Assembly (NCBI GenBank): GCA_965242965.1
Contig: OZ251518.1
Location: forward strand, 3,968,001-4,032,000
Reading direction: 5' to 3'
DNA: 64,000 nt
Source: Candidatus Poribacteria bacterium
GTDB lineage: Bacteria; Poribacteria; WGA-4E; WGA-3G
The number at the start of each line of letters is the position of its first letter. Within the stretch, counting starts at the first letter, position 1. The translations under genes and the position numbers were made by a program. This document shows positions 29,849 through 43,427 of this stretch, one piece after another. Under the pieces are notes generated by a model, which was not told the DNA's origin, did no database searches, and saw nothing but the letters and a program-made list of their open reading frames with translations.

Positions 29849-30343
29849 GGTAGGAGAGACCTCCTGGTCTCGATGCAATGGGGCGGCGGCGGCAGAAAGC
29901 CCCTTCATCGTAGGGCGAGGGCCCTCGGATGCCACACGCGCATGCGAGCGGGTTTCCCTCGCCATGCTGCGATCGCGGGGGACAGGCCCCCGCGCTACGG
30001 TGAAAAAAACGGTTCCCTTCACCGTAGGGCGAGGGCCTGTCCCTCGCCATCGTTTTGCTGCCAGACCCCTTCACACACATCGTGACGATGGAGTTCGCGG
30101 GGGACAGGCCCCCGCGCTACGATGGAAAAAACATGCCGATTACCGTAGGGCGAGGGCCTGTCCCTCGCCATCGTTTTGCTGCCAGAACCCTTCACCTCTG
30201 TAGGTCAGGATCGCCCGATCCTGACCCGTTCGGGATTAGGCGATCCCGAACTACAGCGGTGGGCCCGATGCCTTCCGGTAGGAGAAACATCAAGACAAGG
30301 AAGTCTCTCCTATCGGGAAGGCATTGATATATGAAACATCCTC
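29849..30343. repeat. Composite REP array with right TIR, bracketed by a 22-bp direct repeat
   Basis: TATGAAACATCCTC 30330-30343; TAACATATTGCGCGTTAAAAAG at 29809-29830 and 30353-30374. Confidence 0.88.
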
Positions 30344-30449
30344 AATAAAGTCTAACATATTGCGCGTTAAAAAGCAAGGGCATTTTCATCTTCGATTTTG
30401 GAAATGCAATTGTCTATAAGCAGATTAGAAGGTGTCAAGGCGTTAAGAT

Positions 30450-33400
30450 TCAGGGCGTAACATCCCGCGCGCAACGAAAACCGATGAGGCCGTTCGCGTT
30501 CGTCGGCGAAAACCTGCCGCGAGGGGCGACGCGCAAGTTCTGTGCTGAATTGGGCCAACCGCCGCCGCGCAACACGCGCGAGGTTGTAACGTTTTGGTAA
30601 TTCGTCATCACTTCCGTTAGGGTCATCTCGCTGGCGAGCGGATTCCGCCGCGGCGAACGCGTATAGAAATCCGCCTCATACGCATCAAGGCACCACTCCC
30701 ACACATTCCCAGCCATGTCGTATAACCCATACCCATTCGGCGCATACATGCCAACCGGCGTTGTCAGCGGAGTAGGACTTCGGATAGACTTACCGTAGTT
30801 TGCCTTGCTAGCATCAATGCTGTAACCCCACGGGTATTTCTCATCCACCAAGCCGCCGCGTGCGGCTTTCTCCCATTCTGCCTCTGTCGGGAGCCGTTTC
30901 CCGGCCCACTGCGCGTACGCCATCGCCGCATACCAACTCACATACACCACCGGGTGGTTCCCTTTCCCACTCGGATAACTGTTACCACTCCAATCTTGGA
31001 GGTAGAGTCCACTGCGGTATTTTTTCGGAATCCGGTTTTTCTGCCACGGTGGGTTTGCATCGACAAACGCCTTGAACTGCGCATTCGTGACTTCGTATTT
31101 ATCAATGTAGAATGCATCGACGTAAACGGTATGTACGGGTTTTTCATTGTCTTCTGCGTCGCTGTCGTTGCTGCCCATTTGGAAGTCGCCGGCGGGAATC
31201 CGCACCATCTCCGTGCCATCTTTCCCAAGAATCGTCGATGTGTGCGCGCCTTGCTGAGGAATTGCTTGTTTCTCCAATTGGACATCCCGCTGCCCCTCCT
31301 GACCTCCTTGTGTAACAGCCCGCGCGCAACGAAAACCGATGTAGACGCTCAAGTTCGCCGGCGTAAACCTGTTGCGATTGGCGACGCGCAAGTCCCGCGC
31401 TGTAAGGCCCCAACTGCCGCCGCGCAACACGCGCGAGGTTGTAACGTTAACGTTTTGGTAATTCGTCATCAGTTCTGTCATGTTCATCTCGCCGGCGAGC
31501 GGATTTTGAGGCTGCGAACGCGCGTAGAAACCCTCCTCATGCGCATCAAGGCACCACTCCCACACATTGCCGGCCATGTCGTATAACCCATACCTATTCG
31601 GCGCGTACGTGCCAACCTGCGTTGTGTTTCCAACATCCTTGTTGTAGTTTGCTTGGCTGGTGTCAATTGCATTCCCCCATGGGTATTTCTTGTCCACCAA
31701 GCCGCCACGGGCCGCTTTCTCCCACTCTGCCTCTGTCGGGAGCCGTTTGCCGGCCCACTGCGCATACGCCATCGCCGCATACCAACTCACATACCTCACC
31801 GGATGGTTCCCTTTCCCACTCGGATAACTGTTCCCACTCCAATCTTGGAGGTAGTTTCCACTGTGGTATTTTTGCGGAATCCGGTTTTTCTGCCACTGGG
31901 GGTTTGCATCGACAAACGTCTTGAACTGCGCGTTCGTCACCTCGTAGGTATCAATGTAGAACGCATCCACATAGACGGTATGCGCGGGTTTTTCATCGTC
32001 TCCTGCGTCGCTGTCGTTGCTGCCCATTTGGAAGTCGCCGGCGGGAATCAGCACCATTTCAGTAGTATCTGGTATAGCAGCGGGTTTGGGACGTGCTTGT
32101 GTTTCCAATTGGACATCCTGTTGCACCTCCTGACCTCCTTGTGTAACATCCCTCGCGCAACGAAAACCGAAGTGGCCGTCCGTGCTCGCTGGCGTATTGC
32201 CGCCGCGACCGGCGACACGCAAATCCTGTGCGGTAAAGATCCAACTGCCGCCGCGCAACACGCGCGAGGTTGTAACGTTTTTGTAATTCGTCATCACTTC
32301 CGTTAGGTTCATCTCGCCGGCGAGCGGATTCCGCCGCGTTGAACGCGCATAGGAATCATACGCATCAAGGCACCACTCCCACACATTGCCGGCCATATCG
32401 TATAACCCATACCCATTCGGCGGATACGTGCCAACCGGCATTGTGTTTCCAACAGTCTTGTTGTAGTTTGCTTGGCTGATGTCAATTGCATTGCCCCACG
32501 GGTATTTCTTGCCCACTAAGCCGCCGCGGGCGGCTTTCTCCCACTCTGCCTCTGTCGGGAGCCGTTTGCCGGCCCACTGCGCATACGCTATCGCTGCATA
32601 CCAACTCACATGCCTTACCGGATGGTTCGATTTCCCACGGGGATAATTATTGCCATCCCAATGCATGAGGTAACCGTGGAAGTCAGTGGGCATGGCGAAC
32701 TGCTCATCAATTTTGTCTTTTTGCCACTGTGGGTTTGCATCGACAAACGCCTTGAACTGTGCATTCGTCACTTCGTATTTATCGATGTAGAACGCGTCTA
32801 CGTAAACGGTATGCATCGGTTTTTCATGGCTGTATGCCTCGTGGTCGTTGCTGCCCATTTGGAACTCGCCGGCGGGGATGAGCACCATTTCAGTAGAGGC
32901 TGGCATAGCAGCGGGTTTGGGACGTGCTCGTTTCTCCAATTGAACATCCCACGGAACTTCTTGTCCACCCCTCAGTGTCACACCTCTCACTTGGCTTTTG
33001 TAACCGGGGAGTTCTATGCCAAGTTCTACCTGCTTTTCTCGCGTTGTTCCGGTGTCAACCTCAAAGCCGCGCAACGGCGTTTTGCCGATAGCGGCACCGT
33101 CAAGATAAACACTCGCGCCGTTCGGTGTGCTGGTCACCTGCAAGGTTGCGATGGTGGCAAACTTTTCCAATCGGACTGTCCATGGCATGCTTTGCCCACC
33201 TTTCAATGTCAAGGTTGTTGTTCGGCTTTTATAGCCTTCGGATTCCAAGCGGACATGAACCTGTTTGACGCGTCTCACCCCAGTGTCGATTTGATAGCCG
33301 CGCATCGGTGTTTTCCCGATGACAATCCCCTCAAGATAAACCGTCGCGCCGCGGGGAGTGCTTGTTACGTTTAACGTCGCTATTGTAGATAAGGCATCGC

Positions 33401-34292
33401 CAGGAGGAGGAGGTGCTTCCCGCGGCAAGACGAATACAAAATCCCCCTGGTTCAGTTTGGGGTTGTTGATTTTGCCATACTGCGGGTTTTGCCCACGGTT
33501 ATATTTCGGGACTTCGGTTTTCAGATAGAGCCCTAACTCCGCGCCGGTAATGTAACCGTCCGCAATAGGTTCCTGCGCGATGCCTTTAACGAGGTTCAGA
33601 AATGCCTCCTTAAAAACACTGTGATCTGGCACGGTTTCATCGGCGCGGCCGGCCGTGATGAATTGTCGCACGGGATATTTGACGTTGTTTGAGACATAAG
33701 GCGGCGGAATCTGGCTGCGCGCATTGAGAATCGTGCCAGAGAAACAGCTGTCAAACATAAACAGCACATGCCGTGACTGCATGCGCCGTGACTGCGTCAC
33801 CAGCGATTCCATGTCCACACTTTTGCTACCGTCGATGCCGTCGTTTTTTGGGAAAGGCGCGTCTACCATGACGAGGTATCCAAGGTGTTCGCCATCGGCA
33901 AGTTCCTCAGTGTAACCGTGGCCCGCGTAGTAGAAAAGGAGTCGGGCATCCTCGTTTTTTCCGTTCTGGACGAACGTCTCAAAGGCATCTTCAAACTTGT
34001 CTTTTGTCAGGTCGGTTTTGAGGGTGACGTTGAAGCCGTGTGTTTTGAGTGCCGCGGCGACTTCCTGCACGTCGCGAGTTGCGCCGGGCAGCGGGTCCCA
34101 GCCATTTCGGTAATTTCCGTTTCCGACGATGAGCGCGTAAGAGGCTTTATAGAGTTCAATCTCTTCGCCGGTGTTTGTTCGGACGCTGATTTTCATGCCG
34201 CGGTTGGTTTGCGGGCAGAGGTCTGGCGCGCCGATGAAAATGGCGGCACTACCAAAGACGATGGCAATAAGGGTGATGAATACGGTTTTCAT
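30450..34292 (-). CDS. Secreted caspase (peptidase C14)-PEGAx2-(FGE-sulfatase/CLec)x3 protein; putative DGR target
   Basis: Signal/TM; dyad 'YYAGHG' and 'FDSCFSG'; two 'VTSTP.GA.VYL.G..IGKTP' PEGA; three 'IPAG.FQMGS...RLPTEAEWEKAARGG...GNVWEW...RGGSW...GFRC' domains. Confidence 0.92.
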   Translation of the reverse strand: MKTVFITLIAIVFGSAAIFIGAPDLCPQTNRGMKISVRTNTGEEIELYKASYALIVGNGNYRNGWDPLPGATRDVQEVAAALKTHGFNVTLKTDLTKDKFEDAFETFVQNGKNEDARLLFYYAGHGYTEELADGEHLGYLVMVDAPFPKNDGIDGSKSVDMESLVTQSRRMQSRHVLFMFDSCFSGTILNARSQIPPPYVSNNVKYPVRQFITAGRADETVPDHSVFKEAFLNLVKGIAQEPIADGYITGAELGLYLKTEVPKYNRGQNPQYGKINNPKLNQGDFVFVLPREAPPPPGDALSTIATLNVTSTPRGATVYLEGIVIGKTPMRGYQIDTGVRRVKQVHVRLESEGYKSRTTTLTLKGGQSMPWTVRLEKFATIATLQVTSTPNGASVYLDGAAIGKTPLRGFEVDTGTTREKQVELGIELPGYKSQVRGVTLRGGQEVPWDVQLEKRARPKPAAMPASTEMVLIPAGEFQMGSNDHEAYSHEKPMHTVYVDAFYIDKYEVTNAQFKAFVDANPQWQKDKIDEQFAMPTDFHGYLMHWDGNNYPRGKSNHPVRHVSWYAAIAYAQWAGKRLPTEAEWEKAARGGLVGKKYPWGNAIDISQANYNKTVGNTMPVGTYPPNGYGLYDMAGNVWEWCLDAYDSYARSTRRNPLAGEMNLTEVMTNYKNVTTSRVLRGGSWIFTAQDLRVAGRGGNTPASTDGHFGFRCARDVTQGGQEVQQDVQLETQARPKPAAIPDTTEMVLIPAGDFQMGSNDSDAGDDEKPAHTVYVDAFYIDTYEVTNAQFKTFVDANPQWQKNRIPQKYHSGNYLQDWSGNSYPSGKGNHPVRYVSWYAAMAYAQWAGKRLPTEAEWEKAARGGLVDKKYPWGNAIDTSQANYNKDVGNTTQVGTYAPNRYGLYDMAGNVWEWCLDAHEEGFYARSQPQNPLAGEMNMTELMTNYQNVNVTTSRVLRGGSWGLTARDLRVANRNRFTPANLSVYIGFRCARAVTQGGQEGQRDVQLEKQAIPQQGAHTSTILGKDGTEMVRIPAGDFQMGSNDSDAEDNEKPVHTVYVDAFYIDKYEVTNAQFKAFVDANPPWQKNRIPKKYRSGLYLQDWSGNSYPSGKGNHPVVYVSWYAAMAYAQWAGKRLPTEAEWEKAARGGLVDEKYPWGYSIDASKANYGKSIRSPTPLTTPVGMYAPNGYGLYDMAGNVWEWCLDAYEADFYTRSPRRNPLASEMTLTEVMTNYQNVTTSRVLRGGGWPNSAQNLRVAPRGRFSPTNANGLIGFRCARDVTP
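30453..30580 (-). other. Putative DGR variable region (gene 1, domain 3, C-terminal)
   Basis: Differences from sister domains fall at codon positions 1-2 with the third base conserved (see findings). Confidence 0.75.
31311..31436 (-). other. Putative DGR variable region (gene 1, domain 2, internal)
   Basis: Same pattern. Confidence 0.7.
32142..32268 (-). other. Putative DGR variable region (gene 1, domain 1, internal)
   Basis: Same pattern. Confidence 0.7.
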
Positions 34293-34371
34293 GATGGCGC
34301 GGATTTTAGCATGTTACGCCTTAAAAAGCAAGGGTATTTTCTCTATAATCAGAAAAACGTCCCAGTGCGCG

Positions 34372-34607
34372 CGTAGGGCGAGGGCCTGTCCCTCGCCGTG
34401 CTGGGTTCTGATTCCCGTTGCGCGCGTAGGGCGAGGGCCTGTCCCTCGCCGTGCTGCGGTCTAACGCCTCGGGAGTTCGTAGGGCGCGGGCCTGTCCCTC
34501 GCCATGCTGGGTTCTGGTTTTGCATCGAGACCAGGAGGTCTCTCCTACCGGTGTTGCATCGAGACCAGGAGGTCTCTCCTACCGGGGCCGCCTGTCCCTC
34601 GCCCTAC
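34372..34607. repeat. REP-like array
   Basis: Three A-family and two B-family hairpins; terminal GTAG supplies the stop of 34604..36253. Confidence 0.85.
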
Positions 34608-36253
34608 GGTTGTGTGGCGTTTTTGCTAAGCGTCGTAATCACAAGACGCGCTTCACTCTGTTGCGCATGAGGACGTTGCTGCTTCTTTTTCATCCCGCGA
34701 AAAGCGCGAGCTGCCTGTTCAGCATCTTCTGCCTTCAAAAATAGATACCCATCGCTTTCGTAGGACTCGATGACTGGAAACTTATCGGTCCGCGCCGCGA
34801 CGATAAGCAATTCTGCGCCAAACGGAGCTGCACACTCAAACTCTTCCGGAATCTCAACAACACGATTAACCTTCGACTCATCGATATAGTAGTTGTCATA
34901 GAGGAGCGTGTGCCGGCCATCGGCAAGGATATAGAGGATGCGGATGTAAGCCGCTTGATTGACACGGACAGAAACCAGCATTGTCTCGCCTTCGGTATAA
35001 AGCGGATGCTCACTCGGGCTGTTTGTCCAGACATCCACCCGCAGCGCGCCACTGACGAATTCGCCTTCGGCAAACGCTTTTTGTGATATGAGAGCCGCCT
35101 GCCAATTTTGCGGTTTGAAGTCCATATCCGTAAGGCGCGAGAAGGTGACTGCGGTGCCAGCCTTGACTGCACCGGTATCGACATCGCGCAGCGTCGTCCG
35201 AAGGGTGATTGCATCGCTGTTTTCCCAATAGGTGCCGGAGAGCAGCAACGTCGCGCCCGCACTTTTGGTAAAATCGCGCATCAGTTGCGCGGAACGGGGA
35301 CGAACGTTTCCGCGGGAACGGTGCTTTTCAGTGACGGTGTGCCACTTGCCGATTTGTCCGAGTTGTGCCTCCAGCGCGGCGCGGAATTCACGCGAAAAAC
35401 GGCTATTCATCTGCGTATCTTGATAGGTAGGGGCTACCAGCAACACTTTCCCTGCGAGGTGACGCACCTGTTTTGAGAGTTGAAAGACAACGGCACGCGC
35501 AATATCATCAACGGAAGTGATTGCGGCAGTTGAGACGAGGTGCTCAACGCGATTCATTACCTCGGTGTGCGACATCAGGGGACTATCTCCCACGCCGGAA
35601 TCGCCTTTTGTGGCTCTTTCCAATTCGGCGAAGGCGGTGTCTGCAGAAATCGCGACCGGGAGGGCGCGCCTACTGGAGAGTTTTGCCACCGTCAAGATAG
35701 TCTCCGCCTCTTTCAACGCTTCGTAAAGCGGCGCGGTGCTCAGGTATTTCTCCACGGCGAGAGAGATTTTATCCTCGTTTTCTGCGGTGTGGGCATCGGC
35801 AAGGATGCGCCGGATTTCGGCGCGGCGTTGGACAGCGCGTTGCGTATAGAGCCGCTTGAGCTCGGCGCGCGAAATCCATGCGAGGACATACGCGGTATGC
35901 TGGCCATCGTAATGCTCAAGCGAAAGTCCCATCAGTTGCAGCGCAGTGGAACTTTGAGTGGTTGCACTGAAATGTTCGGAGACACCGTGCCTCGTCTCTT
36001 CCTCGCCGGTGGAAATAACGCTTTTGATGTTTGTGACAATGTGGCGAGAAACTTCTGCGCGGGCGTTGTCTGCGGCAATCTGGCGTGATTCGGCACCGTT
36101 CCCCTGCGCACTCCCGAAGCCGACGAGATAACTGTGTGATGGATGCCTTTTGGACACGCCGAAGTTGCGGACCCAATCGGGTGCGTCGGCGTGCGCGGTT
36201 GTGGTGAGGGAGATAAGGAATATGAAAAATAGAGAGATGCGCGTGGTTTTCAT
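34604..36253 (-). CDS. Secreted LPP20-like + DUF4384-like domain protein
   Basis: Signal peptide ending AHA, 'PDWV', 'A.DNARAE'; C-terminal 'VWTN....Y..GE...V.V.VNQ.AY..ILY..ADG', 'PFGAELL'; domain names by recollection. Confidence 0.65.
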   Translation of the reverse strand: MKTTRISLFFIFLISLTTTAHADAPDWVRNFGVSKRHPSHSYLVGFGSAQGNGAESRQIAADNARAEVSRHIVTNIKSVISTGEEETRHGVSEHFSATTQSSTALQLMGLSLEHYDGQHTAYVLAWISRAELKRLYTQRAVQRRAEIRRILADAHTAENEDKISLAVEKYLSTAPLYEALKEAETILTVAKLSSRRALPVAISADTAFAELERATKGDSGVGDSPLMSHTEVMNRVEHLVSTAAITSVDDIARAVVFQLSKQVRHLAGKVLLVAPTYQDTQMNSRFSREFRAALEAQLGQIGKWHTVTEKHRSRGNVRPRSAQLMRDFTKSAGATLLLSGTYWENSDAITLRTTLRDVDTGAVKAGTAVTFSRLTDMDFKPQNWQAALISQKAFAEGEFVSGALRVDVWTNSPSEHPLYTEGETMLVSVRVNQAAYIRILYILADGRHTLLYDNYYIDESKVNRVVEIPEEFECAAPFGAELLIVAARTDKFPVIESYESDGYLFLKAEDAEQAARAFRGMKKKQQRPHAQQSEARLVITTLSKNATQP

Positions 36254-36646
36254 AGCGATCCTTGGAGAACAGATTCTAGCCTATCGTAATATAGCATCGG
36301 ATCGATTAAAAGGCAAGCGTTTTTTTAATCAGGATTTGCAGGATTTGCAAGATTAGAGGACATTCGCGTTATGGAAATCTGCTGGAGGTCTGAATTTTCT
36401 TTCCATTGATCTTTGTGATAGATCTAGACCGCAAGACGATCCGAGTTGACAATAAAGCGCAGATCTGAAGAAAAATTGATTGCGATCAAAAAAATAAAAT
36501 TGGATTTAGATATTCGCAAAAGAATACTATATTAAGCCTAGTAGGAGTTTTCAGGTGCCATTCGTCGCGCGGGAGAAAATGCTCCCGCTTCTTGTGCAAT
36601 CACTTGTTAGTGACTCTGAAATTAATATATAATAAGGAGAAAAATA

Positions 36647-36976
36647 ATGCAATTTGAAAGGAAGACGAAATCCGAGACAACAGAAACAGTAAAAATCTCT
36701 ACAGATCCAGCGGAGAGGGCCCATGTTCGGGTTAATCAAAAATCCGGTGAATATGAGATCACTACCTCGCCAATTCCCTGTGATCACAAATCGGGTGAAT
36801 GTAAAGTCATCACCTTGCGAATTCCTTCCATAGGTGGTTGTCTACGCAGATGCCTCACCTTCGTTAAGGATTGGAATTTTCTGTTCCAGGCAGTTAGATT
36901 CGTCATGGAGAACTTCCCAGAGTTTGTCTTAATTGTCTGGGCTTTGTTCCGTTTTCTAGGTGTTATGCCCAATTAG
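36647..36976 (+). CDS. Small hypothetical protein with hydrophobic C-terminus
   Basis: RBS TAAGGAG; lies in an AT-rich segment; no recognisable motif. Confidence 0.45.
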   Translation: MQFERKTKSETTETVKISTDPAERAHVRVNQKSGEYEITTSPIPCDHKSGECKVITLRIPSIGGCLRRCLTFVKDWNFLFQAVRFVMENFPEFVLIVWALFRFLGVMPN

Positions 36977-37224
36977 TTTCTGTAGTTCGGGATCGCCTGA
37001 TCCCGAACAGTCAAGATCGCTTGGAAACCAGTATGCCAGAGTTTCAGGCGATTTTGACCTACAGAGACGAGGCAAATCAACGTCAGTTGGTATTAGAGGG
37101 AAATCTTTATGCAAACAAGGCATGCTATCGGATAATTGGATAGTTTTGTTCGTCTTTTTGTGCAAAGGTGCAATTACTTGTAGTGCTACTATCTGCAAGA
37201 ACAGAAGGGGTAAAGGAGTTAGGG

Positions 37225-40092
37225 TTAAGGGGTAACATCCTTCGCGCAACGAAAACCGAGGTTGACGGCCGTGAACGTTGGCGGATTCCTGTTGCGATTG
37301 GCGACACGCAAGGCCAGCACTGACGAGAGCCAACTGCCGCCGCGCAACACGCGGTCATTGTGGTCCTGAACCTTCGCGAAGCCATCTTCAACCCATCCTC
37401 CCGCCACCGGATTCCGATGTGGCGAACGCCTATAGAAAGCTGCCTCCCACTCATCAATGCACCACTCGTAGACATTGCCCGCCATATTGTGTAATCCGTA
37501 TCCGTTCGCCGGGTAACTGCCGACAGGGGCAATGAACGCGTGCCCATCGTTCACACTGTCATCTGTCCAAGTTATCCAATCAATATTGAGGTTAGCTAGA
37601 GTGACATCGGCGAAGTTACACTGCGTTCCATCCGGCGCACTGTTACCCCACGGGTATTTCTTGCCTTCCAAGCCGCCGCGTGCGGCTTTCTCCCACTCTG
37701 CCTCTGTCGGGAGCCGTTTGCCGGCCCACTGCGCATACGCCATCGCTGCATACCAACTCACGAACATCACAGGGTGGGTGTCTTCCCCACTCGGATAACT
37801 GTTCTCCGTCCAGGAGTCTAGGTAGTCTCCATCATGATATTTGTCAGGGATGTTGTCCTTCCGCCACTGTGGGTTTGCATTGACAAACGCCTTGAACTGC
37901 GCGTTCGTCACCTCGTATTTGTCCATGTAGAATGCACCGACGTAAACGGTATGCACAGGTCTTTCATTGCCTTCCGTGTTGCTGTCGTTGCTGCCCATTT
38001 GGAACTCGCCGGCGGGGATCAGCGCCATATCCGCGCCATCTTGTCCAAGAATCGTTGATGGGTGCGCGCCTTGCTGAGGGATTGCCTGTTTTTCCAATTG
38101 GACATCTCGCGGTCCCTCCTGACCTCCTTGCGTAACAGCCCTCGCGCAACGAAAACCGATGAGGTTGAACGTGGCCGTGGGCGGCCTGCTGTTGCGATCG
38201 GCGACATGCAAGCTCCGTGCGACGAAGCCCCACGACCCGCCGCGCAACACGCGGGCATTGTGGGTCTGAACCTTCGCGAAGCCATCTCCAACCCATCCCC
38301 CCGCTACCGGATTCCGATGTGGAGAACGCGAATAGAAAGCTGCATCCCACTCATCAATGCACCACTCGTGGACATTGCCCGCCATATTGTGTAATCCGTA
38401 TCCGTTCGCCGGGTAACTGCCGACAGGGGCAGTGAACGCGTGACCATCGTTCACATTGTCATTTGTCCAAGTTATCTCATCAATATTGCGGTTAGCCAGA
38501 GTGACATCGGCGAAGTTACACTGCGTTCCGTCCGGCGCACTGTTGCCCCACGGGTATTTCTTGCCTTCCAAGCCGCCGCGTGCGGCTTTCTCCCACTCTG
38601 CCTCTGTTGGGAGCCGTTTGCCGGCCCACTGCGCATACGCCATCGCCGCATACCAGCTTACAAGAACAACTGGATGGTTACCGGCCCCACTCGGATAGTC
38701 GTTGCCATTCCAGAGGTTGAGGTAGTAGCCATTGTGGTATTTGTCAGGGATGTTGTCCTTCTGCCACTGTGGGTTTGCGTCGACAAACGCCTTGAACTGC
38801 GCGTTCGTCACCTCGTATTTGTCCATGTAGAATGCATTGATGTAAACGGTATGCACTGGTTTTTCATAGTCTTCTGCCTCGCTGTCGTTGCTGCCCATTT
38901 GGAACTCGCCGGCGGGGATGAGCACCATCTCGGCACCGTCTCGTCCAATTATCGTCGGAGCAAGCGTTGATTCTAAGGCGACATCCCAGGGGAGGTTTTG
39001 TCCACCTGTCACTGTAACGTTTTTCATTAGGTTTTTGTAACCAGCGAGTTCTAAGCCGATTTCTATCTGCTTTTCACGCCTGATTCCCGTGTCAATCTCC
39101 TGGTTGTGTAATGGCGTTTTTCCGACAGCGGCCCCATCAACGTAGACTGTTGCACCGCTGGGAGTGCTCGTTATATGCAACGTTGCGAGTGTAGGGAGTT
39201 CGGCAGTGTTTCGCTGCGGTAGCACGAAGACAAAATCGCCCTTATCTAACTTCGGGTCTTGGATTTTACCGTATTGTGGGTGTTGCGCCTCGTTGTATAT
39301 CGGGACCTGATTCTTCAGATACAATCCCAACTCCGCACCAGTGATATAACCATCGCGGAACGGTTCGGCAGCGCGGCCGTCAATGAGGTCAAGGAACGCT
39401 GTTTTGAACACGCTCCGGTCAGGCACGGGTTCGTTCGCGCGCCCGGCGGTGATGAATTGCCGCACGGGATGCCGAATGTTATCCGAAATGCTCTCGGGTC
39501 TCACCCGGTCGCGTGCATTCAAAATAGTGCCGGAGAAGCAGCAGTCAAACAGGAACAGGACATGCCGTGCGAGTATCGCCTTGGATTCACCGACAAGCGT
39601 TTCCATGTTGACGCTTTCTCGGACAAAGCCGAGTTTGTCGATGTCAGGTTCTGGTGCGTCTACCATGACGAGATACCCGCGTTCCTGGGCGTTGGCAAGT
39701 GGCAGGGTGTAACCGTGTCCTGCATAGTAAAAGAGGAGACGGTTGTTTTCGTCTGCCCCGTGCTCTAACACGAATGTGAGGAATGCGTCCTCAAATTCAT
39801 CTGCGGTGAGATCGGTTTTAAGGGTGACGTTGAAGTCGTGTGTTTGGAGTGCCTCGGCGACTTCTTTCACGTCTTGTATCGCGCCCGGCAGCGGGTCCCA
39901 TCCGTTAGTGTAGTTTCCATTTCCGATGACGAGTGCGTAAGAGGCGTTGTAGAGTTCAATGTGTTCGCCGGCACTGGTGCGGACGCTAATTTTCATGCCG
40001 CGGCGGGTTTGTGGGTGCAGCGTTGTGGTGCCGATGAAAATGAGGGCACCACAGAGCAAAACAACAAAAAGTGAGATGCTAAAGATTTTCAC
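37225..40092 (-). CDS. Secreted caspase (C14)-PEGA-(FGE-sulfatase/CLec)x2 protein; putative DGR target
   Basis: GTG start after GAGGTG RBS aligns with paralog N-termini; 'YYAGHG', 'FDCCFSG'; one PEGA; two CLec domains. Confidence 0.92.
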   Translation of the reverse strand: MKIFSISLFVVLLCGALIFIGTTTLHPQTRRGMKISVRTSAGEHIELYNASYALVIGNGNYTNGWDPLPGAIQDVKEVAEALQTHDFNVTLKTDLTADEFEDAFLTFVLEHGADENNRLLFYYAGHGYTLPLANAQERGYLVMVDAPEPDIDKLGFVRESVNMETLVGESKAILARHVLFLFDCCFSGTILNARDRVRPESISDNIRHPVRQFITAGRANEPVPDRSVFKTAFLDLIDGRAAEPFRDGYITGAELGLYLKNQVPIYNEAQHPQYGKIQDPKLDKGDFVFVLPQRNTAELPTLATLHITSTPSGATVYVDGAAVGKTPLHNQEIDTGIRREKQIEIGLELAGYKNLMKNVTVTGGQNLPWDVALESTLAPTIIGRDGAEMVLIPAGEFQMGSNDSEAEDYEKPVHTVYINAFYMDKYEVTNAQFKAFVDANPQWQKDNIPDKYHNGYYLNLWNGNDYPSGAGNHPVVLVSWYAAMAYAQWAGKRLPTEAEWEKAARGGLEGKKYPWGNSAPDGTQCNFADVTLANRNIDEITWTNDNVNDGHAFTAPVGSYPANGYGLHNMAGNVHEWCIDEWDAAFYSRSPHRNPVAGGWVGDGFAKVQTHNARVLRGGSWGFVARSLHVADRNSRPPTATFNLIGFRCARAVTQGGQEGPRDVQLEKQAIPQQGAHPSTILGQDGADMALIPAGEFQMGSNDSNTEGNERPVHTVYVGAFYMDKYEVTNAQFKAFVNANPQWRKDNIPDKYHDGDYLDSWTENSYPSGEDTHPVMFVSWYAAMAYAQWAGKRLPTEAEWEKAARGGLEGKKYPWGNSAPDGTQCNFADVTLANLNIDWITWTDDSVNDGHAFIAPVGSYPANGYGLHNMAGNVYEWCIDEWEAAFYRRSPHRNPVAGGWVEDGFAKVQDHNDRVLRGGSWLSSVLALRVANRNRNPPTFTAVNLGFRCAKDVTP
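37228..37353 (-). other. Putative DGR variable region (gene 2, domain 2, C-terminal)
   Basis: Same pattern; retains AAT CGC AAC AGG AAT template-like codons. Confidence 0.75.
38131..38253 (-). other. Putative DGR variable region (gene 2, domain 1, internal)
   Basis: Same pattern, GGG TCG TGG variant. Confidence 0.65.
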
Positions 40093-40200
40093 GGGATTCA
40101 CCTCTTCAAGAAGAACGATTTTGGGCAAGGTTACGAAGAATTTCCTGCGGAGATGGTTGCCGGCCAGCAGAAAACCGAAAACCAAATGACGTTGACATTA

Positions 40201-40229
40201 ATTATACACAAAATGTTGATTAATGTCAA
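40201..40229 (-). promoter_or_regulatory. Consensus sigma70 promoter of gene 37225..40092
   Basis: TTGACA-17-TATAAT on the minus strand. Confidence 0.7.
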
Positions 40230-40402
40230 AGTTGTGGGGAAATTTCATGGCAATTCAGTTTTCCTCATAACCACTTTTCGTTTGATAGGCACGCAACTGA
40301 CTGGAAAACGGAACGCCTCTCTCCTCGGGTTGTGCCGAAGTTTGATTATTTGTGATGCCTTTTCTATAAACAGCAGATCAGAAGAGGTAAAGGTGTGACG
40401 AA

Positions 40403-43249
40403 TTAAGGGGTAACATCGCTCGCGCAACGAAAACCGGTGTCGACGTTCGTGAGCGTTGGCGGATTCCTGTAGCGATTGGCGACACGCATGAACTGCGCTG
40501 TACCGCCACAACCGCCGCCGCGCAACACGCGGGCATTGTGGTCCTGAACCTTCGCGAAGCCATCTCCAACCCATCCCCCCGCTACCGGATTCCGATGTGG
40601 AGAACGCGAATAGAAAGCTGCATCCCACTCATCAATGCACCACTCGTAGACATTGCCCGCCATATTGTGTAATCCGTATCCGTTCGCCGGGTAACTGCCG
40701 ACAGGGGCAGTGAGCGCGTGACCGTCGTTCACATTGGCATCCGTCTCAATTCTCTCATCAATGTTAGCATCAATGTTAGCCAGAGTGACATCGGCGAAGT
40801 TACACTGCGTTCCGTCCGGCGCACTGTTGCCCCACGGGTATTTCTTGCCTTCCAAGCCGCCGCGTGCGGCTTTCTCCCATTCTGCCTCTGTCGGGAGCCG
40901 TTTGCCGGCCCACTGCGCATACGCCATCGCCGCATACCAGCTTACAAAAACAACTGGATAGTTACCTTGTCCACTCGGATAGTCGTTGCCATTCCAGAGG
41001 CCTAGGTAGTCTCCATCGTGGTAGACGTGCGGAATTTGGTTTTTCCGCCACTGCGGATTTGCATCGACAAATGCCTTGAACTGCGCGTTCGTCACTTCGT
41101 ATTTGTCGATGTAGAATGCATCGACATAAACGGTATGCACCGGTTTTTCATTGTTATTTGCCTCGCTGTCGTCGCTGCCCATCTGGAACTCACCTGCGGG
41201 GATGAGCACCATCTCGCTCGTGTCTGGCATAGCATTGGCTTTGGGAGGTGCTTGTTTTTCCAGTAACTTCGTTGGAGTAACAGCCCTCGCGCAACGAAAA
41301 CCGCCGCTTGAGTCCGTGGCCGCGGGCGTAAACCAGAAGCGATAGGCGACGCGCAAGCCCGATGCGGCGGTGCCCCACGACCCGCCGCGCCACACGCGGG
41401 CACTGTAGGTCTGAACCTTCGCGAATCCATCTCCAACCCATCCACGCCCCACCGGATTCCGATGTGGCGAACGCCTATAGAAAGTTGCATCCCACTCATC
41501 AATGCACCACTCGTAGACATTGCCCGCCATATTGTGTAATCCGTATCCGTTCGCCGGGTAACTGCCGACAGGGGCAGTGAGCGCGTGACCATCGTTCACA
41601 TTGGCATCTGTCCAAATTCTATAATCAGGATCGAGGTTAAGCAGAGTGACATCGGCGAAGTTACACTGCGTTCCATCCGGCGCACTGTTGCCCCACGAGT
41701 AGGTCTTGCCATCTAACCCACCACGGGCGGCTTTCTCCCATTCTGCCTCTGTCGGGAGCCGTTTGCCGGCCCACTGCGCATACGCCATCGCCGCATACCA
41801 GCTTACAAAAACAACTGGATAGTTACCTGTTCCACTCGGATAGTCGTTGCCATTCCAGAGGTCTAGGTAGCTTCCATCATGATATTTCTCAGAGATGTTG
41901 TCTTTCCGCCACTGTGGATTTGCATCGACAAACGTCTTGAACTGCGCGTTCGTCACTTCGTATTTGTCGATGTAGAATGCATCGACGTAAACGGTATGCA
42001 CCGGTTTTTCATTGTCTTTTGCGTTGCTGTCGTCGCTGCCCATCTGGAAGTCGCCGGCGGGGATGAGCACCATCTCCGCGCCATCTTGTCCAATAATCTG
42101 TTGGACAAGCATAGGTTCTAAGGGGATATCCCAGGGCACGTTTTCTCCGCCTATCAAGGTGACGTTTTTCACCCGGCTTTTGTAACCGGCGAGTTCTAAG
42201 CCGATTTCTACCGGCTTCTCACGCTGCACACCCGTGTCAATTTCATAGTTGCGTAAGGGCGTTTCCCCGATGGGGGCACCGTCAAGATAGACCGTCGCGC
42301 CGTTCGGTGTGCTCGTCACATTCACCGTCGCGAGTGGCGGGAGGTCTGCCTGAGGTGGCGAAGTATGCCGCTGAGGCAGCACGAAGACAAAATCGCCTTT
42401 GTCTAACTTCGGGTCTCGGATTTTACCGTATTGTGGGTGTTGCGCCTCGTTGTATATCGGTACCTGATTCTTCAGATACAATCCCAACTCTGCACCGGTA
42501 ATGTAACCATCGCGGAACGGTTCAGCAGCGCGGCCATCAATGAGGTCGAGGAATGCGGTTTTGAACACGCTCCGGTCAGGCACGGGTTCGTTCGCGCGCC
42601 CGGCGGTGATGAATTGCCGCACAGGATGCCGAATGTTATCCGAAATGCTCTCGGGGCTGATTCTGTCGCGCGCGTTGAGAATGGTGCCGGAGAAGCAGCA
42701 GTCAAACAGAAACAGGACATGCCGTGCGAGTATCGCCTTGGATTCACCGACAAGGGTTTCCATGTTGATACTGCCTCGGACGAAGCCGAGTTTGTCGGTG
42801 TCGGGCTCTGGTGCGTCTACCATGACGAGATAGCCGCGCTCCTGCTCGTTGGCAAGCGGCAGGGTGTAACCGTGTCCGGCGTAGTAAAAGAGGAGCCGGT
42901 TGTTTTCGTCTGCGCCATGTTCCAACACGAACGTGAGGAACGCGTCCTCAAACTCATCTGCGGTGAGATCGGTTTTGAGGGTGACGTTGAAGTCGTGTGT
43001 TTTGAGTGCCTCGGCGACTTCTTTCACGTCTTGTAGTGCCCCGGGCAGCGGGTCCCATCCGTTTGTGTAATTGCCATTTCCGATGACGAGTGCATAGGAG
43101 GCGTTATAGAGTTCAATGTGTTCGCCGGCACCGGTGCGGACGCTAATTTTCATGCCGCGGCTGGTTTGGGAGCGCAAGTCTGTGGTGCTGATGAAGATGA
43201 TGGCACCACAGAGGATGATAACAAATAGGAAAATGAGAGACGTTTTCAT
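40403..43249 (-). CDS. Secreted caspase (C14)-PEGA-(FGE-sulfatase/CLec)x2 protein; putative DGR target
   Basis: Caspase domain almost identical to that of 37225..40092; RBS GAGGA. Confidence 0.92.
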   Translation of the reverse strand: MKTSLIFLFVIILCGAIIFISTTDLRSQTSRGMKISVRTGAGEHIELYNASYALVIGNGNYTNGWDPLPGALQDVKEVAEALKTHDFNVTLKTDLTADEFEDAFLTFVLEHGADENNRLLFYYAGHGYTLPLANEQERGYLVMVDAPEPDTDKLGFVRGSINMETLVGESKAILARHVLFLFDCCFSGTILNARDRISPESISDNIRHPVRQFITAGRANEPVPDRSVFKTAFLDLIDGRAAEPFRDGYITGAELGLYLKNQVPIYNEAQHPQYGKIRDPKLDKGDFVFVLPQRHTSPPQADLPPLATVNVTSTPNGATVYLDGAPIGETPLRNYEIDTGVQREKPVEIGLELAGYKSRVKNVTLIGGENVPWDIPLEPMLVQQIIGQDGAEMVLIPAGDFQMGSDDSNAKDNEKPVHTVYVDAFYIDKYEVTNAQFKTFVDANPQWRKDNISEKYHDGSYLDLWNGNDYPSGTGNYPVVFVSWYAAMAYAQWAGKRLPTEAEWEKAARGGLDGKTYSWGNSAPDGTQCNFADVTLLNLDPDYRIWTDANVNDGHALTAPVGSYPANGYGLHNMAGNVYEWCIDEWDATFYRRSPHRNPVGRGWVGDGFAKVQTYSARVWRGGSWGTAASGLRVAYRFWFTPAATDSSGGFRCARAVTPTKLLEKQAPPKANAMPDTSEMVLIPAGEFQMGSDDSEANNNEKPVHTVYVDAFYIDKYEVTNAQFKAFVDANPQWRKNQIPHVYHDGDYLGLWNGNDYPSGQGNYPVVFVSWYAAMAYAQWAGKRLPTEAEWEKAARGGLEGKKYPWGNSAPDGTQCNFADVTLANIDANIDERIETDANVNDGHALTAPVGSYPANGYGLHNMAGNVYEWCIDEWDAAFYSRSPHRNPVAGGWVGDGFAKVQDHNARVLRGGGCGGTAQFMRVANRYRNPPTLTNVDTGFRCASDVTP
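40406..40531 (-). other. Putative DGR variable region (gene 3, domain 2, C-terminal)
   Basis: Same pattern. Confidence 0.75.
41277..41399 (-). other. Putative DGR variable region (gene 3, domain 1, internal)
   Basis: Same pattern, GGG TCG TGG variant. Confidence 0.65.
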
Positions 43250-43272
43250 AGAATTTCCTCAGGCTACAGATT

Positions 43273-43427
43273 CGTCGGTGATCGAACGGATACGAACTAT
43301 CGAGACCGGGAGGTCTCGCCTACGGGAGCATCCGATGCGTCGGTGATCGAACGGATACGAACCATCGAGACCGGGAGGTCTCTCCTACAGGAGCATCCGA
43401 TGTGTCGGTTATTGAACGGATACGAAC
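43273..43427. repeat. 65-bp tandem repeat x2.4, each full unit holding a B-family REP
   Basis: Units begin at 43273, 43338 and 43403 (CGTCGGTGATCGAACGGATACGAAC..). Confidence 0.9.

What the first reader, a model, noticed from the sequence alone, without database searches (positions are those of the whole stretch)
30450..43249. Targets lack a local RT/TR, and four of seven variable regions are internal to the genes
Seen: no RT motif (YxDD), no Avd-like ORF and no AAC-rich non-coding copy within about 30 kb to the left or 20 kb to the right. Each gene holds 2-3 differently diversified VRs in tandem. Established: typical DGR targets have one C-terminal VR near the cassette, although remote targets are known. 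Inference: this is a trans-acting DGR serving a dispersed family of multivalent binders, each polypeptide combining several specificities on one secreted protease.
Basis: partly seen in the sequence, partly recalled or inferred. Interest (0 to 1): 0.8.

Follow-up and report, generated by a model that had tools for sequence, protein, structure and literature searches.

The report
Orphaned multi-site DGR targets, retroelement lost
Three neighbouring protease genes of a sponge-associated bacterium each carry two or three binding domains whose tips were rewritten by a diversity-generating retroelement, but this genome has lost the element's enzyme and template, so the tips now look frozen rather than actively diversified.

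Summary
Genes A (30450-34292), B (37225-40092) and C (40403-43249), all on the minus strand, encode caspase-PEGA proteins. They carry 3, 2 and 2 FGE-sulfatase (C-type-lectin-fold) domains. Each domain ends in a 111-nt variable region (VR); four of the seven are internal.

The DGR signature is strong. Among 12 VRs of this genome, non-adenine sites are 95% alike, flanking scaffolds 66% and inferred adenine sites 36%. All 31 adenines of a relative's template repeat (TR) fall on variable columns.

"Served by a trans-acting DGR" is supported only as history. The 5.70-Mb, 2-contig assembly has no reverse transcriptase (RT) and no TR. It keeps one intact Avd gene beside another target, 1.26 Mb away, followed by REP repeat arrays where relatives carry RT and TR. 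The only strain variant of gene B has both VRs unchanged.

Close relatives still carry RT beside a 99%-identical Avd, and their cassette-adjacent VRs differ. The loss is therefore recent and probably polymorphic.

Tandem VR-bearing lectin domains, trans targets and repeat arrays replacing RT are already described (Doré 2024). This scan has noted orphaned DGR VRs on other DNA before.

Verdict: a new member of a known kind, of moderate interest.

The parts
30450..34292 (-). Gene A, 1280 aa. Domain order: N-terminal hydrophobic segment, caspase (Peptidase_C14, with AGHG and DSCFSG motifs), 2 PEGA domains, 3 tandem FGE-sulfatase/CLec domains.
   Evidence: FGE-sulfatase E 4.1e-201 in 3 stretches; PEGA 7e-25; C14 1.4e-18. 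The exact protein is on record.
30468..30578 (-). VR A3t, the terminal VR of gene A. It has 0 mismatches to the VR-class consensus at non-adenine sites.
31323..31433 (-). VR A2i, internal (second FGE domain of A). It has 1 non-adenine mismatch.
32154..32264 (-). VR A1i, internal (first FGE domain of A). It has 3 non-adenine mismatches.
34604..36253 (-). Intervening gene, 549 aa, with LPP20 lipoprotein-like and DUF4384 domains. It is kept between the A-like and B-like genes in the same-genus genome G002 (90% nt identity).
37225..40092 (-). Gene B, 955 aa from a GTG start. Domain order: caspase, PEGA, 2 FGE-sulfatase/CLec domains.
   Evidence: The GTG start is confirmed by an exact look-up of the 955-aa product.
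37243..37353 (-). VR B2t, terminal. It has 2 non-adenine mismatches. It is identical in strain variant P0006 and in contigs of runs X7, X8 and X11.
38143..38253 (-). VR B1i, internal. It has 8 non-adenine mismatches, four of them in a 5' GGGTCG variant shared with C1i. It is identical in P0006. A contig of the diverged strain in run X1 spans it with 2 differences in 411 nt.
40403..43249 (-). Gene C, 948 aa, a paralogue of B. Domain order: caspase, PEGA, 2 FGE-sulfatase/CLec domains.
40421..40531 (-). VR C2t, terminal. It has 3 non-adenine mismatches. Contigs of X7, X8 and X11 span it with 0 differences.
41288..41398 (-). VR C1i, internal. It has 5 non-adenine mismatches and keeps the fewest adenines (8 of 35).

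Best explanation
Genes A, B and C encode exported or membrane-anchored caspase-type proteases. Each is fused through PEGA domains to two or three non-catalytic FGE-type C-type-lectin domains. The ligand-binding tip of every one of these domains was written by mutagenic retrohoming from a single DGR template class. The cassette that did this lay 1.26 Mb away, next to a cohesin-dockerin-FGE target. In this genome that cassette has kept the target and an intact Avd gene. Its reverse transcriptase and template repeat are gone, and REP/MITE-like repeat arrays stand in their place. The seven VRs, internal ones included, were competent remote targets and were rewritten individually after the domains duplicated. 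In this lineage they are now a frozen, germline-like set of binding specificities. Shown: the domain architecture; the adenine-specific VR pattern; absence of RT and TR from the assembly; the Avd remnant; the decay series in relatives; unchanged VRs in one strain variant. Inferred: export; the ligand-sensing protease function; the order of events; that the RT is truly absent from the living population.
For: (1) DGR signature. Across 12 VRs of this genome, mean pairwise identity is 0.95 at non-adenine sites, 0.66 in the 300 nt upstream and 0.36 at inferred adenine sites (66 pairs). 31 of 31 adenines of the G024 TR and 29 of 30 of the G004 TR fall on variable columns (Fisher p 5e-14 and 1e-11). 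30 of 35 variable columns are codon positions 1-2.
(2) No RT and no TR in the assembly. The assembly is 94.66% complete, in 2 contigs.
(3) One Avd only. It scores 118 bits against NCBIfam DivGenRetAVD (cut-off 80) and is 76-82% identical to the Avd of relatives that have target-Avd-RT-TR. The relatives' cassettes align to the own target and Avd, but their RT regions hit nothing. REP arrays begin about 10 nt after the Avd stop.
(4) Decay series among 41 genomes. The cassette is intact in 3 (G004, G009, G024). G000 keeps Avd only, G007 an Avd fragment plus TR, G020 an Avd fragment, and G024:C276 an Avd with a stop codon.
(5) Frozen VRs. P0006 against gene B has 0 of 52 VR residues changed and 37 of 903 elsewhere. 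Contigs of X7, X8 and X11 (2 studies) span B2t and C2t with 0 differences. An X1 contig spans B1i with 2 differences in 411 nt.
(6) Recent activity. The tandem domains are specific to G000, because the G002 orthologues have one FGE domain each. The G002 VRs carry their own shared non-adenine variants. Sibling VRs differ mainly at adenine sites, so at least one internal VR per gene was rewritten in place.
Against: A very close relative still has the enzyme. RT P0086 sits on a 74,390-base contig. That is the same length as the contig carrying an Avd 99% identical to the own one (P0012) and the orthologous target (P0016). RT P0194 is on a 5,813,822-base contig that also carries a 97.6%-identical marker protein.

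In those relatives the cassette-adjacent target differs at 12-15 of 26 VR residues against 4% elsewhere. The C1:1432791 target differs at 13-16 of 26. The element was therefore active very recently and may persist in part of the population that this assembly represents.

The frozen-VR evidence is thin. It rests on one variant protein, whose 37 non-VR changes sit mostly in gene-conversion-like patches, plus Logan contigs that drop rare variants and may include the source sample. No strain variant of genes A or C was available (clusters of 1). One X1 contig over B2t has 14 differences whose positions were not shown. The genome is 94.66% complete, not 100%.
Confidence: 0.65

Rival explanations
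1. The DGR still acts in trans on these genes. RT and TR would then exist in the organism but be missing from this assembly. They could be a minority structural variant at the Avd locus, an unbinned plasmid or phage, or a repeat-collapsed stretch.
For: Avd is intact and 94-99% conserved among strain-level variants, and its exact sequence is seen on 15 contigs. The 12 VRs still match each other at 95% of non-adenine sites, with 0-3 mismatches in 9 of 12, so the last homing was recent. Close relatives carry RT next to a 99%-identical Avd. PMC10907252 reports intact and degraded DGR variants coexisting within single aggregates (passage read).
Against: No RT of any kind and no TR is found in either of the two contigs, by four methods. 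No matching TR turns up in one scan each of genome contigs and viral contigs with a 21-nt VR-class word; the single metagenome hit is an unrelated gene. The VRs are unchanged in the one strain variant and in contigs of three runs. Phage-borne DGRs are not expected to serve remote chromosomal targets (Wu 2018, passage read).
Confidence: 0.25
2. The differences between tandem VRs predate the tandem arrangement. Domains with already different VRs were joined by recombination, and their scaffolds were later homogenised by gene conversion. On this reading internal VRs were never rewritten in place.
For: P0006 shows conversion-like patches exchanged between B1 and B2 scaffolds, and between B and C signal peptides, that leave the VRs untouched. 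The A-gene domains do not group with the G002 A-like domain in the tree. Internal VRs show more non-adenine mismatches (1, 3, 8, 5) than terminal ones (0, 2, 3). They also lack the conserved sequence past the stop codon.
Against: All four internal VRs carry the G000-specific non-adenine variants rather than the G002-type ones. They keep the AGGGCTGTTAC-type 3' element. The sharp 5' boundary, where 56-60% scaffold identity jumps to 88-97% non-adenine identity between A and B/C domains, shows that each was overwritten by the same TR class.
Confidence: 0.08
3. No retroelement was involved. The variable tips result from ordinary paralogue divergence under diversifying selection.
For: No cognate TR can be shown in this genome.
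Against: Variation is confined to columns that are adenines in relatives' TRs (31 of 31). Synonymous third positions between them are near-identical across paralogues that are only 56-60% alike just upstream. A DGR Avd sits beside one of the 12 VRs.
Confidence: 0.02

Closest known systems
Thiohalocapsa PB-PSB1 DGR 4/5 loci (Doré et al. 2024, PNAS, PMC10907252; passages read)
   Same: A single target gene carries three tandem VR-bearing CLec domains. Targets are served in trans by a TR elsewhere that matches at all non-adenine sites. Arrays of MITE-like repeats replace the RT gene. Intact and degraded cassettes coexist. Another of its targets carries a caspase-like CHAT domain.
   Different: In that organism a complete cassette of the same class (DGR 2) is present in the same genome, and diversification was measured in reads. 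Here no RT or TR remains. The N-terminal part there is vWA within a MoxR ternary system; here it is caspase C14 plus PEGA with an LPP20/DUF4384 neighbour. The host there is a purple sulfur bacterium; here it is a sponge-associated bacterium.
Canonical cassette of same-family relatives G004, G009 and G024 (target - Avd - RT - TR; architecture avd-RT-TR of Wu et al. 2018, PMC5758913)
   Same: Avd is 76-82% identical. The FGE-type target has the same VR frame. The TR is in register with the own VRs.
   Different: The own locus stops after Avd. The own genome has 13 frame-perfect VRs against at most 6 (TR included) in any of the 40 relatives. None of the relatives' loci examined shows tandem VR domains.
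Treponema denticola TvpA and its remote targets (PDB 2Y3C; Wu 2018 passage)
   Same: An FGE-type CLec domain carries the VR (2y3c matches at E 4e-11). Several remote targets are served by one cassette.
   Different: TvpA has one VR per protein, and the Treponema cassette is intact.
Cyanobacterial DGR targets with regulatory or protease domains (Vallota-Eastman et al. 2020, PMC7517822; search listing and start of abstract only)
   Same: DGR-diversified CLec domains are fused to signalling or protease modules.
   Different: The paper was not read in detail, so no claim is made about tandem VRs there.

Membership tests
DGR target gene (variable region written by mutagenic retrohoming) | The VR differs from a cognate TR in the same genome only at TR adenines. 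| tested here: not met
   No TR-like copy is present in the 5.70-Mb assembly. blastn with all 7 VRs finds only coding FGE-domain copies.
DGR target gene (variable region written by mutagenic retrohoming) | Substitution pattern is adenine-specific and falls in codon positions 1-2, with invariant non-adenine sites (tested by proxy against relatives' TRs). | tested here: met
   31 of 31 and 29 of 30 TR adenines fall on variable columns. Identity is 0.95 at non-adenine sites against 0.66 in the scaffold. 30 of 35 variable columns are codon positions 1-2.
DGR target gene (variable region written by mutagenic retrohoming) | The VR lies at the C-terminal end of a CLec/FGE-sulfatase-fold domain. | tested here: met
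   Pfam PF03781 has E 4e-201, 3e-131 and 1e-129. PDB sequence search gives FGE at 3e-44 and TvpA (2y3c) at 4e-11.
DGR target gene (variable region written by mutagenic retrohoming) | A GC-rich IMH-like element lies at the 3' end of the VR and differs from the TR's 3' flank. | tested here: met
   7 of 7 window VRs end in GCGCG + (A/C)(G/A)(G/C)G(C/A)TGTTAC, like the VRs of G024 and G004. The relatives' TRs continue with AAGAC instead. Function was not tested. No downstream hairpin is found at 7 of 7 (z from -1.3 to +1.3).
Complete DGR system | A DGR-clade reverse transcriptase (IGNLTSQ and YVDD motifs) is present in the genome. | tested here: not met
   PF00078 gives 0 matches, and the control genomes ring. 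tblastn best E is 0.43. The RT profile run with --max gives a best E of 0.78. P0086 hits only REP-derived residues 174-228 (the middle of its output was cut from view).
Complete DGR system | The Avd accessory protein is present. | tested here: met
   NF033474 scores 118 bits (cut-off 80), E 2e-34, single copy at G000:C1:5271392-5271760.
Caspase / Peptidase C14 | Caspase fold with the catalytic His-Cys dyad. | tested here: met
   PF00656 has E 1e-18 to 4e-19. The PADLOC caspase model gives 1.6e-17. YYAGHGY and FD(S/C)CFSG are present in A, B and C. That these motifs hold the dyad is recalled, and activity was not tested. The NCBIfam EACC1-associated caspase model is below its cut-off (54 against 140 bits).
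True formylglycine-generating enzyme | A pair of catalytic cysteines lies in the loop before the GFRCA motif. | tested here: not met
   In the alignment to FGE 6muj, the enzyme's LCHDSYC segment faces the hypervariable stretch and gaps of the query. Which residues are catalytic is recalled, not taken from a call.
Multi-VR tandem-CLec DGR targets (PB-PSB1 DGR 4/5 type) | Two or more tandem CLec domains, each with its own VR, lie in one polypeptide. | tested here: met
Multi-VR tandem-CLec DGR targets (PB-PSB1 DGR 4/5 type) | N-terminal vWA domain and a MoxR/VMAP ternary-system neighbourhood. | tested here: not met
   The N-terminus is caspase + PEGA and the neighbour is LPP20/DUF4384. No vWA domain is seen in A, B or C.

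The most novel reading that the evidence does not exclude
The DGR behaves here as a dispensable, population-polymorphic mutator. It writes a repertoire (12 VRs in 8 genes, internal tandem domains included). The cassette is then eroded by REP/MITE invasion: in-frame REP insertions in the RT of sister strains, then complete replacement in this genome. Each lineage is left with a fixed, germline-like set of multivalent protease-linked receptors. Strains would then differ in repertoire much as individuals differ in immune-receptor alleles. Avd might be retained for a reason other than retrohoming.
Probability: 0.3. Interest if true: 0.6.

Novelty: new member of a known kind. Interest (0 to 1): 0.4.

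Why it matters
This locus gives a clean natural series for how DGR systems end. Relatives hold an intact cassette. Sister strains hold an RT with REP-derived insertions. This genome holds only Avd, and its genus-mates hold nothing. The diversified targets persist throughout.

It also shows that internal VRs, which lack the stop codon and the conserved downstream sequence of terminal ones, were writable. That bears on what a DGR needs to recognise a target.

For sponge-symbiont biology it marks a family of caspase-lectin surface proteins whose binding specificities differ between strains. The general phenomena (tandem VR domains, trans targets, repeat arrays replacing RT) are already published.

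Tried and rejected
1. A scan of metagenome contigs with the 3' end of the own Avd gene gave 0 hits.
2. Scans with a 21-nt VR-class word gave 0 hits in genome contigs and 0 in viral contigs. The 1 hit in metagenome contigs (L046) lies inside an unrelated 429-aa ORF with no FGE or VR features, in a GC-rich organism, and is a chance match.
3. Read laying. All four runs are Logan contigs broken by the repeats, so within-sample diversity could not be measured. No listed piece spans the VRs of gene A or C1i. Run X1 shows no or next to no depth over three bins of gene C, which says nothing. The positions of the 14 differences in X1's contig over B2t were cut from the table.
4. Hairpins downstream of the VRs. 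None is significant at the 7 window VRs. They are strong at the live G024 VR (z -5.8) and at the own Avd-adjacent VR (z -4.4). This is suggestive only.
5. The FGE gene cluster at C1:1.4328-1.4384 Mb was searched for a second cassette remnant, and none was found.
6. The motif match at window 9762 (2 mismatches) is chance: it lies antisense in an ORF with no FGE or VR features.
7. PADLOC gave only a generic caspase hit, and nothing for the LPP20/DUF4384 gene or for Avd.
8. No structure prediction or complex prediction was run. The Pfam and PDB sequence matches were judged sufficient.
Full report
WHAT IS THERE

The window is G000:C1:3968001-4032000 of a 5,700,154-base assembly in two contigs, 94.66% complete. 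Three minus-strand genes fill most of 30450-43249.
- Gene A: 30450-34292, 1280 aa.
- Gene B: 37225-40092, 955 aa from a GTG start. The exact product is on record.
- Gene C: 40403-43249, 948 aa.

A 549-aa LPP20/DUF4384 gene (34604-36253) lies between A and B.

Each protein starts with a hydrophobic segment, followed by a Peptidase_C14 caspase domain (E about 1e-18, with AGHG and D(S/C)CFSG motifs). Then come one or two PEGA domains, and then tandem FGE-sulfatase domains: three in A, two in B and two in C.

By sequence these domains resemble formylglycine-generating enzymes (E 3e-44) and the Treponema DGR target TvpA (2y3c, E 4e-11). The stretch facing the enzyme's cysteine loop is the hypervariable part, so they are binding domains, not enzymes. 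Which residues are catalytic is recalled, not taken from a call.

THE OBSERVATION

GGTTTTCGTTGCGCG occurs exactly seven times in the window, against 0.37 expected. It ends all seven FGE domains. Four of the seven are internal.

IS IT A DGR FOOTPRINT?

Yes. Aligned in register, the seven copies and five more elsewhere in the genome share a 111-nt frame.
- 60 columns are invariant, 16 vary slightly and 35 vary freely.
- 30 of the 35 freely varying columns are codon positions 1 or 2.
- Over all 66 pairs, identity is 0.95 at the non-variable class, 0.66 in the 300 nt upstream and 0.36 at the variable class.
- Between A-type and B/C-type domains the identity jumps from 56-60% to 88-97% at the CGCGTG boundary.

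Three same-family genomes (G004, G009, G024) carry a canonical cassette of target, Avd, RT (IGNLTSQ, Y[VM]DDF) and TR. Their TRs lie in register with the own VRs. 31 of 31 (G024) and 29 of 30 (G004) TR adenines fall on variable columns (p 5e-14 and 1e-11).

All seven window VRs end in the VR-type 3' element (GCGCG then a GGGCTGTTAC-like run). The relatives' TRs continue differently.

WHERE IS THE MACHINERY?

It is not in this assembly.
- PF00078 finds no reverse transcriptase of any kind, and the control genomes ring.
- tblastn with three relatives' RTs gives nothing better than E 0.43.
- A profile of those RTs, run without filters on 112,986 six-frame ORFs, gives a best E of 0.78.
- No copy of the VR frame is adenine-rich.
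- TR-type probes find nothing in G000, while they find the TRs of G004, G009, G024 and G007.

There is exactly one Avd gene, at C1:5271392-5271760. It scores 118 bits against DivGenRetAVD (cut-off 80). It lies 1.26 Mb from the window, directly downstream of a cohesin-dockerin-FGE target whose VR belongs to the same class.

The relatives' cassettes align to this target and Avd at 68-77% nucleotide identity. Their RT regions align to nothing. About 10 nt after the Avd stop, roughly 1.5 kb of GTAG/CTAC-tagged palindromic repeats begins and runs to the next gene. Earlier notes of this scan describe such REP/MITE arrays throughout this genome. I saw them at this locus and in the window's spacers.

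A DECAY SERIES

Among the 41 genomes searched (G000 plus 40 relatives):
- The cassette is intact in three (G004, G009, G024).
- G000 keeps Avd only.
- G007 keeps an Avd fragment followed by a TR.
- G020 keeps an Avd fragment.
- G024 has a second Avd with a stop codon.
- The two other genomes of the genus (G001, G002) have neither RT, Avd nor TR.

G000 nevertheless has 13 frame-perfect VRs, more than any of the 40 relatives. The next highest count is 6 in G004, including its TR.

HOW RECENT WAS THE LAST WRITING?

G002 has the syntenic locus (B-like gene, LPP20/DUF4384 gene, A-like gene), but with one FGE domain per protein. In a tree of the domain scaffolds, B1, B2, C1 and C2 form a clade (100/100) with the G002 B-like domain outside it. 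The tandem copies are therefore specific to G000's lineage, barring gene conversion.

The two G002 VRs share non-adenine variants that none of the 12 G000 VRs has. Each species' VRs were thus written by its own TR version after the split.

Within G000, sibling domains with 88-93% identical scaffolds share only 20-51% of the adenine-class sites. If the tandem copies arose by duplication, at least one internal VR in each gene must have been rewritten in place.

Internal VRs carry somewhat more non-adenine mismatches (1, 3, 8, 5) than terminal ones (0, 2, 3). Four of the mismatches in B1i and C1i are one shared 5' variant, which may lie outside the stretch that was replaced. The hint that internal sites were written less often is therefore weak. 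It parallels the unequal VR activity reported in PMC10907252.

ARE THE VRs STILL CHANGING?

The evidence says no, but it is limited.
- The only other member of the 90% clusters of A, B and C is P0006, a 96%-identical variant of B. Its 37 differences lie in the signal segment (now C-like) and in patches exchanged between the two FGE scaffolds. Both VRs are identical, 0 of 52 residues.
- Contigs of three runs from two studies span the terminal VRs of B (36982-37385) and C (39849-40563) with no difference.
- A contig of a diverged strain (run X1) spans internal VR B1i with 2 differences in 411 nt.

Some of these runs may be the source sample, and contigs drop rare variants.

Two facts point the other way.
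- In clusters of other targets, the Avd-adjacent target differs at 12-15 of 26 VR residues (3 comparisons, one of them a frame-shifted member at 21 of 26) against about 4% elsewhere. The C1:1432791 target differs at 13-16 of 26 (4 comparisons).
- Two older-looking targets (C1:5173068, and the three-domain dockerin protein at C1:2677598) have conserved VRs.

RT genes also exist in very close relatives. P0086 is on a 74,390-base contig, the same length as the contig holding an Avd 99% identical to the own one and the orthologous target. P0194 is on a 5,813,822-base contig that also holds a 97.6%-identical copy of the dockerin protein. Equal contig length is my only link between these proteins.

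These RTs carry in-frame insertions of 19-48 residues just before IGNLTSQ. The inserts read like translated REP elements, and they are the only part of P0086 that hits the G000 genome.

READING

The seven VRs are remote targets of a cassette whose remnant lies at 5.27 Mb. They were written individually, internal ones included, after this species split from G002. The RT and TR were then lost from this lineage, with REP arrays now in their place, while sister strains still hold an RT.

I put 0.65 on "lost and frozen in this genome". I put 0.25 on "still served by an RT/TR that the assembly lacks".

The protein function is inferred from architecture and from the published view of such proteins (PMC7159879 and PMC10907252, passages read). 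On that view it is a surface or periplasmic protease tethered to two or three lectin-type sensors of different specificity, in conflict or host-interaction roles. Nothing was tested here.

COMPARISON WITH WHAT IS KNOWN

Wu et al. 2018 document remote targets up to megabases away, and argue that they belong to non-phage DGRs. Doré et al. 2024 describe all of the following in one organism:
- single targets with three tandem VR-bearing CLec domains;
- trans-served degenerate loci;
- unequal activity of VRs within one target;
- MITE-like arrays that replaced RT genes;
- coexisting intact and degraded variants;
- a caspase-like target.

The present case differs in three ways: the host (a sponge-associated lineage, going by the source names on RT homologues and by earlier notes), the caspase-PEGA front end, and having lost the last RT/TR. 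This scan has also noted orphaned DGR VRs in several other genomes; those notes are unchecked.

I searched the paper library for DGR together with sponge and symbiont. Among the 7 papers listed I saw no title or abstract start on DGRs in sponge symbionts. I did not open them.

VERDICT

This is a new member of a known kind. Interest 0.4.

Noticed in passing
Proteins P0084, P0086-P0090, P0194 (RTs of close relatives; not in the window): DGR reverse transcriptases of the sister lineage carry in-frame insertions of 19-48 residues just before the IGNLTSQ motif. The inserts read like translated REP elements (ARDRPSPYG-type). Insert length varies between clusters, and the ORFs stay open, one cluster having 22 members. 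Whether such RTs still work is unknown.
   Followed up: partly
G000:C1:2677598-2680462 (locus L053): A second multi-domain protein carries a dockerin plus three tandem FGE domains joined by TDTGTVTPP-type repeats. Its three VR-like segments have drifted at non-adenine sites. They are conserved among 5 strain-level variants (2-8 of 78 residues changed against 2-7% elsewhere). This looks like an older, long-frozen tandem target.
   Followed up: partly
G000:C1:1436451-1437300: An FGE-domain gene is cut off in the middle of its VR (after AATCGC) and runs straight into the start of the next FGE gene. This is a deletion with one end inside a VR.
   Followed up: no
G000:C1:31236-31282 (minus strand): An isolated copy of a VR 3' end plus the conserved post-stop sequence stands with no recognisable VR frame upstream of it. 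It looks like a stray fragment of a target's 3' end.
   Followed up: no
window 30440-30467 and 37215-37242; also other terminal VRs of the genome: About 25 nt beyond the 15-mer are conserved among most terminal VRs of otherwise divergent genes, running across the stop codon (GTTACGCCTTGA.TCTTAAC-like). Internal VRs keep only the first 11 nt. This could be part of target recognition, or a trace of how 3' ends spread.
   Followed up: partly
Protein P0006 against gene B (window 37225-40092): The strain variant has gene C's signal segment, and patches swapped between the first and second FGE scaffolds. This points to gene conversion among the paralogues that spares the VRs.
   Followed up: partly
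window 43269-43398 and 30005-30195: A tandem 65-nt repeat (94% alike) lies just upstream of gene C. A pair of 70-nt REP-type repeats (89% alike) lies downstream of gene A. In the laid runs many contigs join REP copies across the locus.
   Followed up: no
G000:C1:1242756-1261025: A cluster of four further protease-type FGE genes: Pfam finds a caspase domain in three and PEGA plus FGE only in the fourth. Three of the four carry VRs of the same tight class. Caspase-lectin fusions are therefore the main target type of this DGR.
   Followed up: partly
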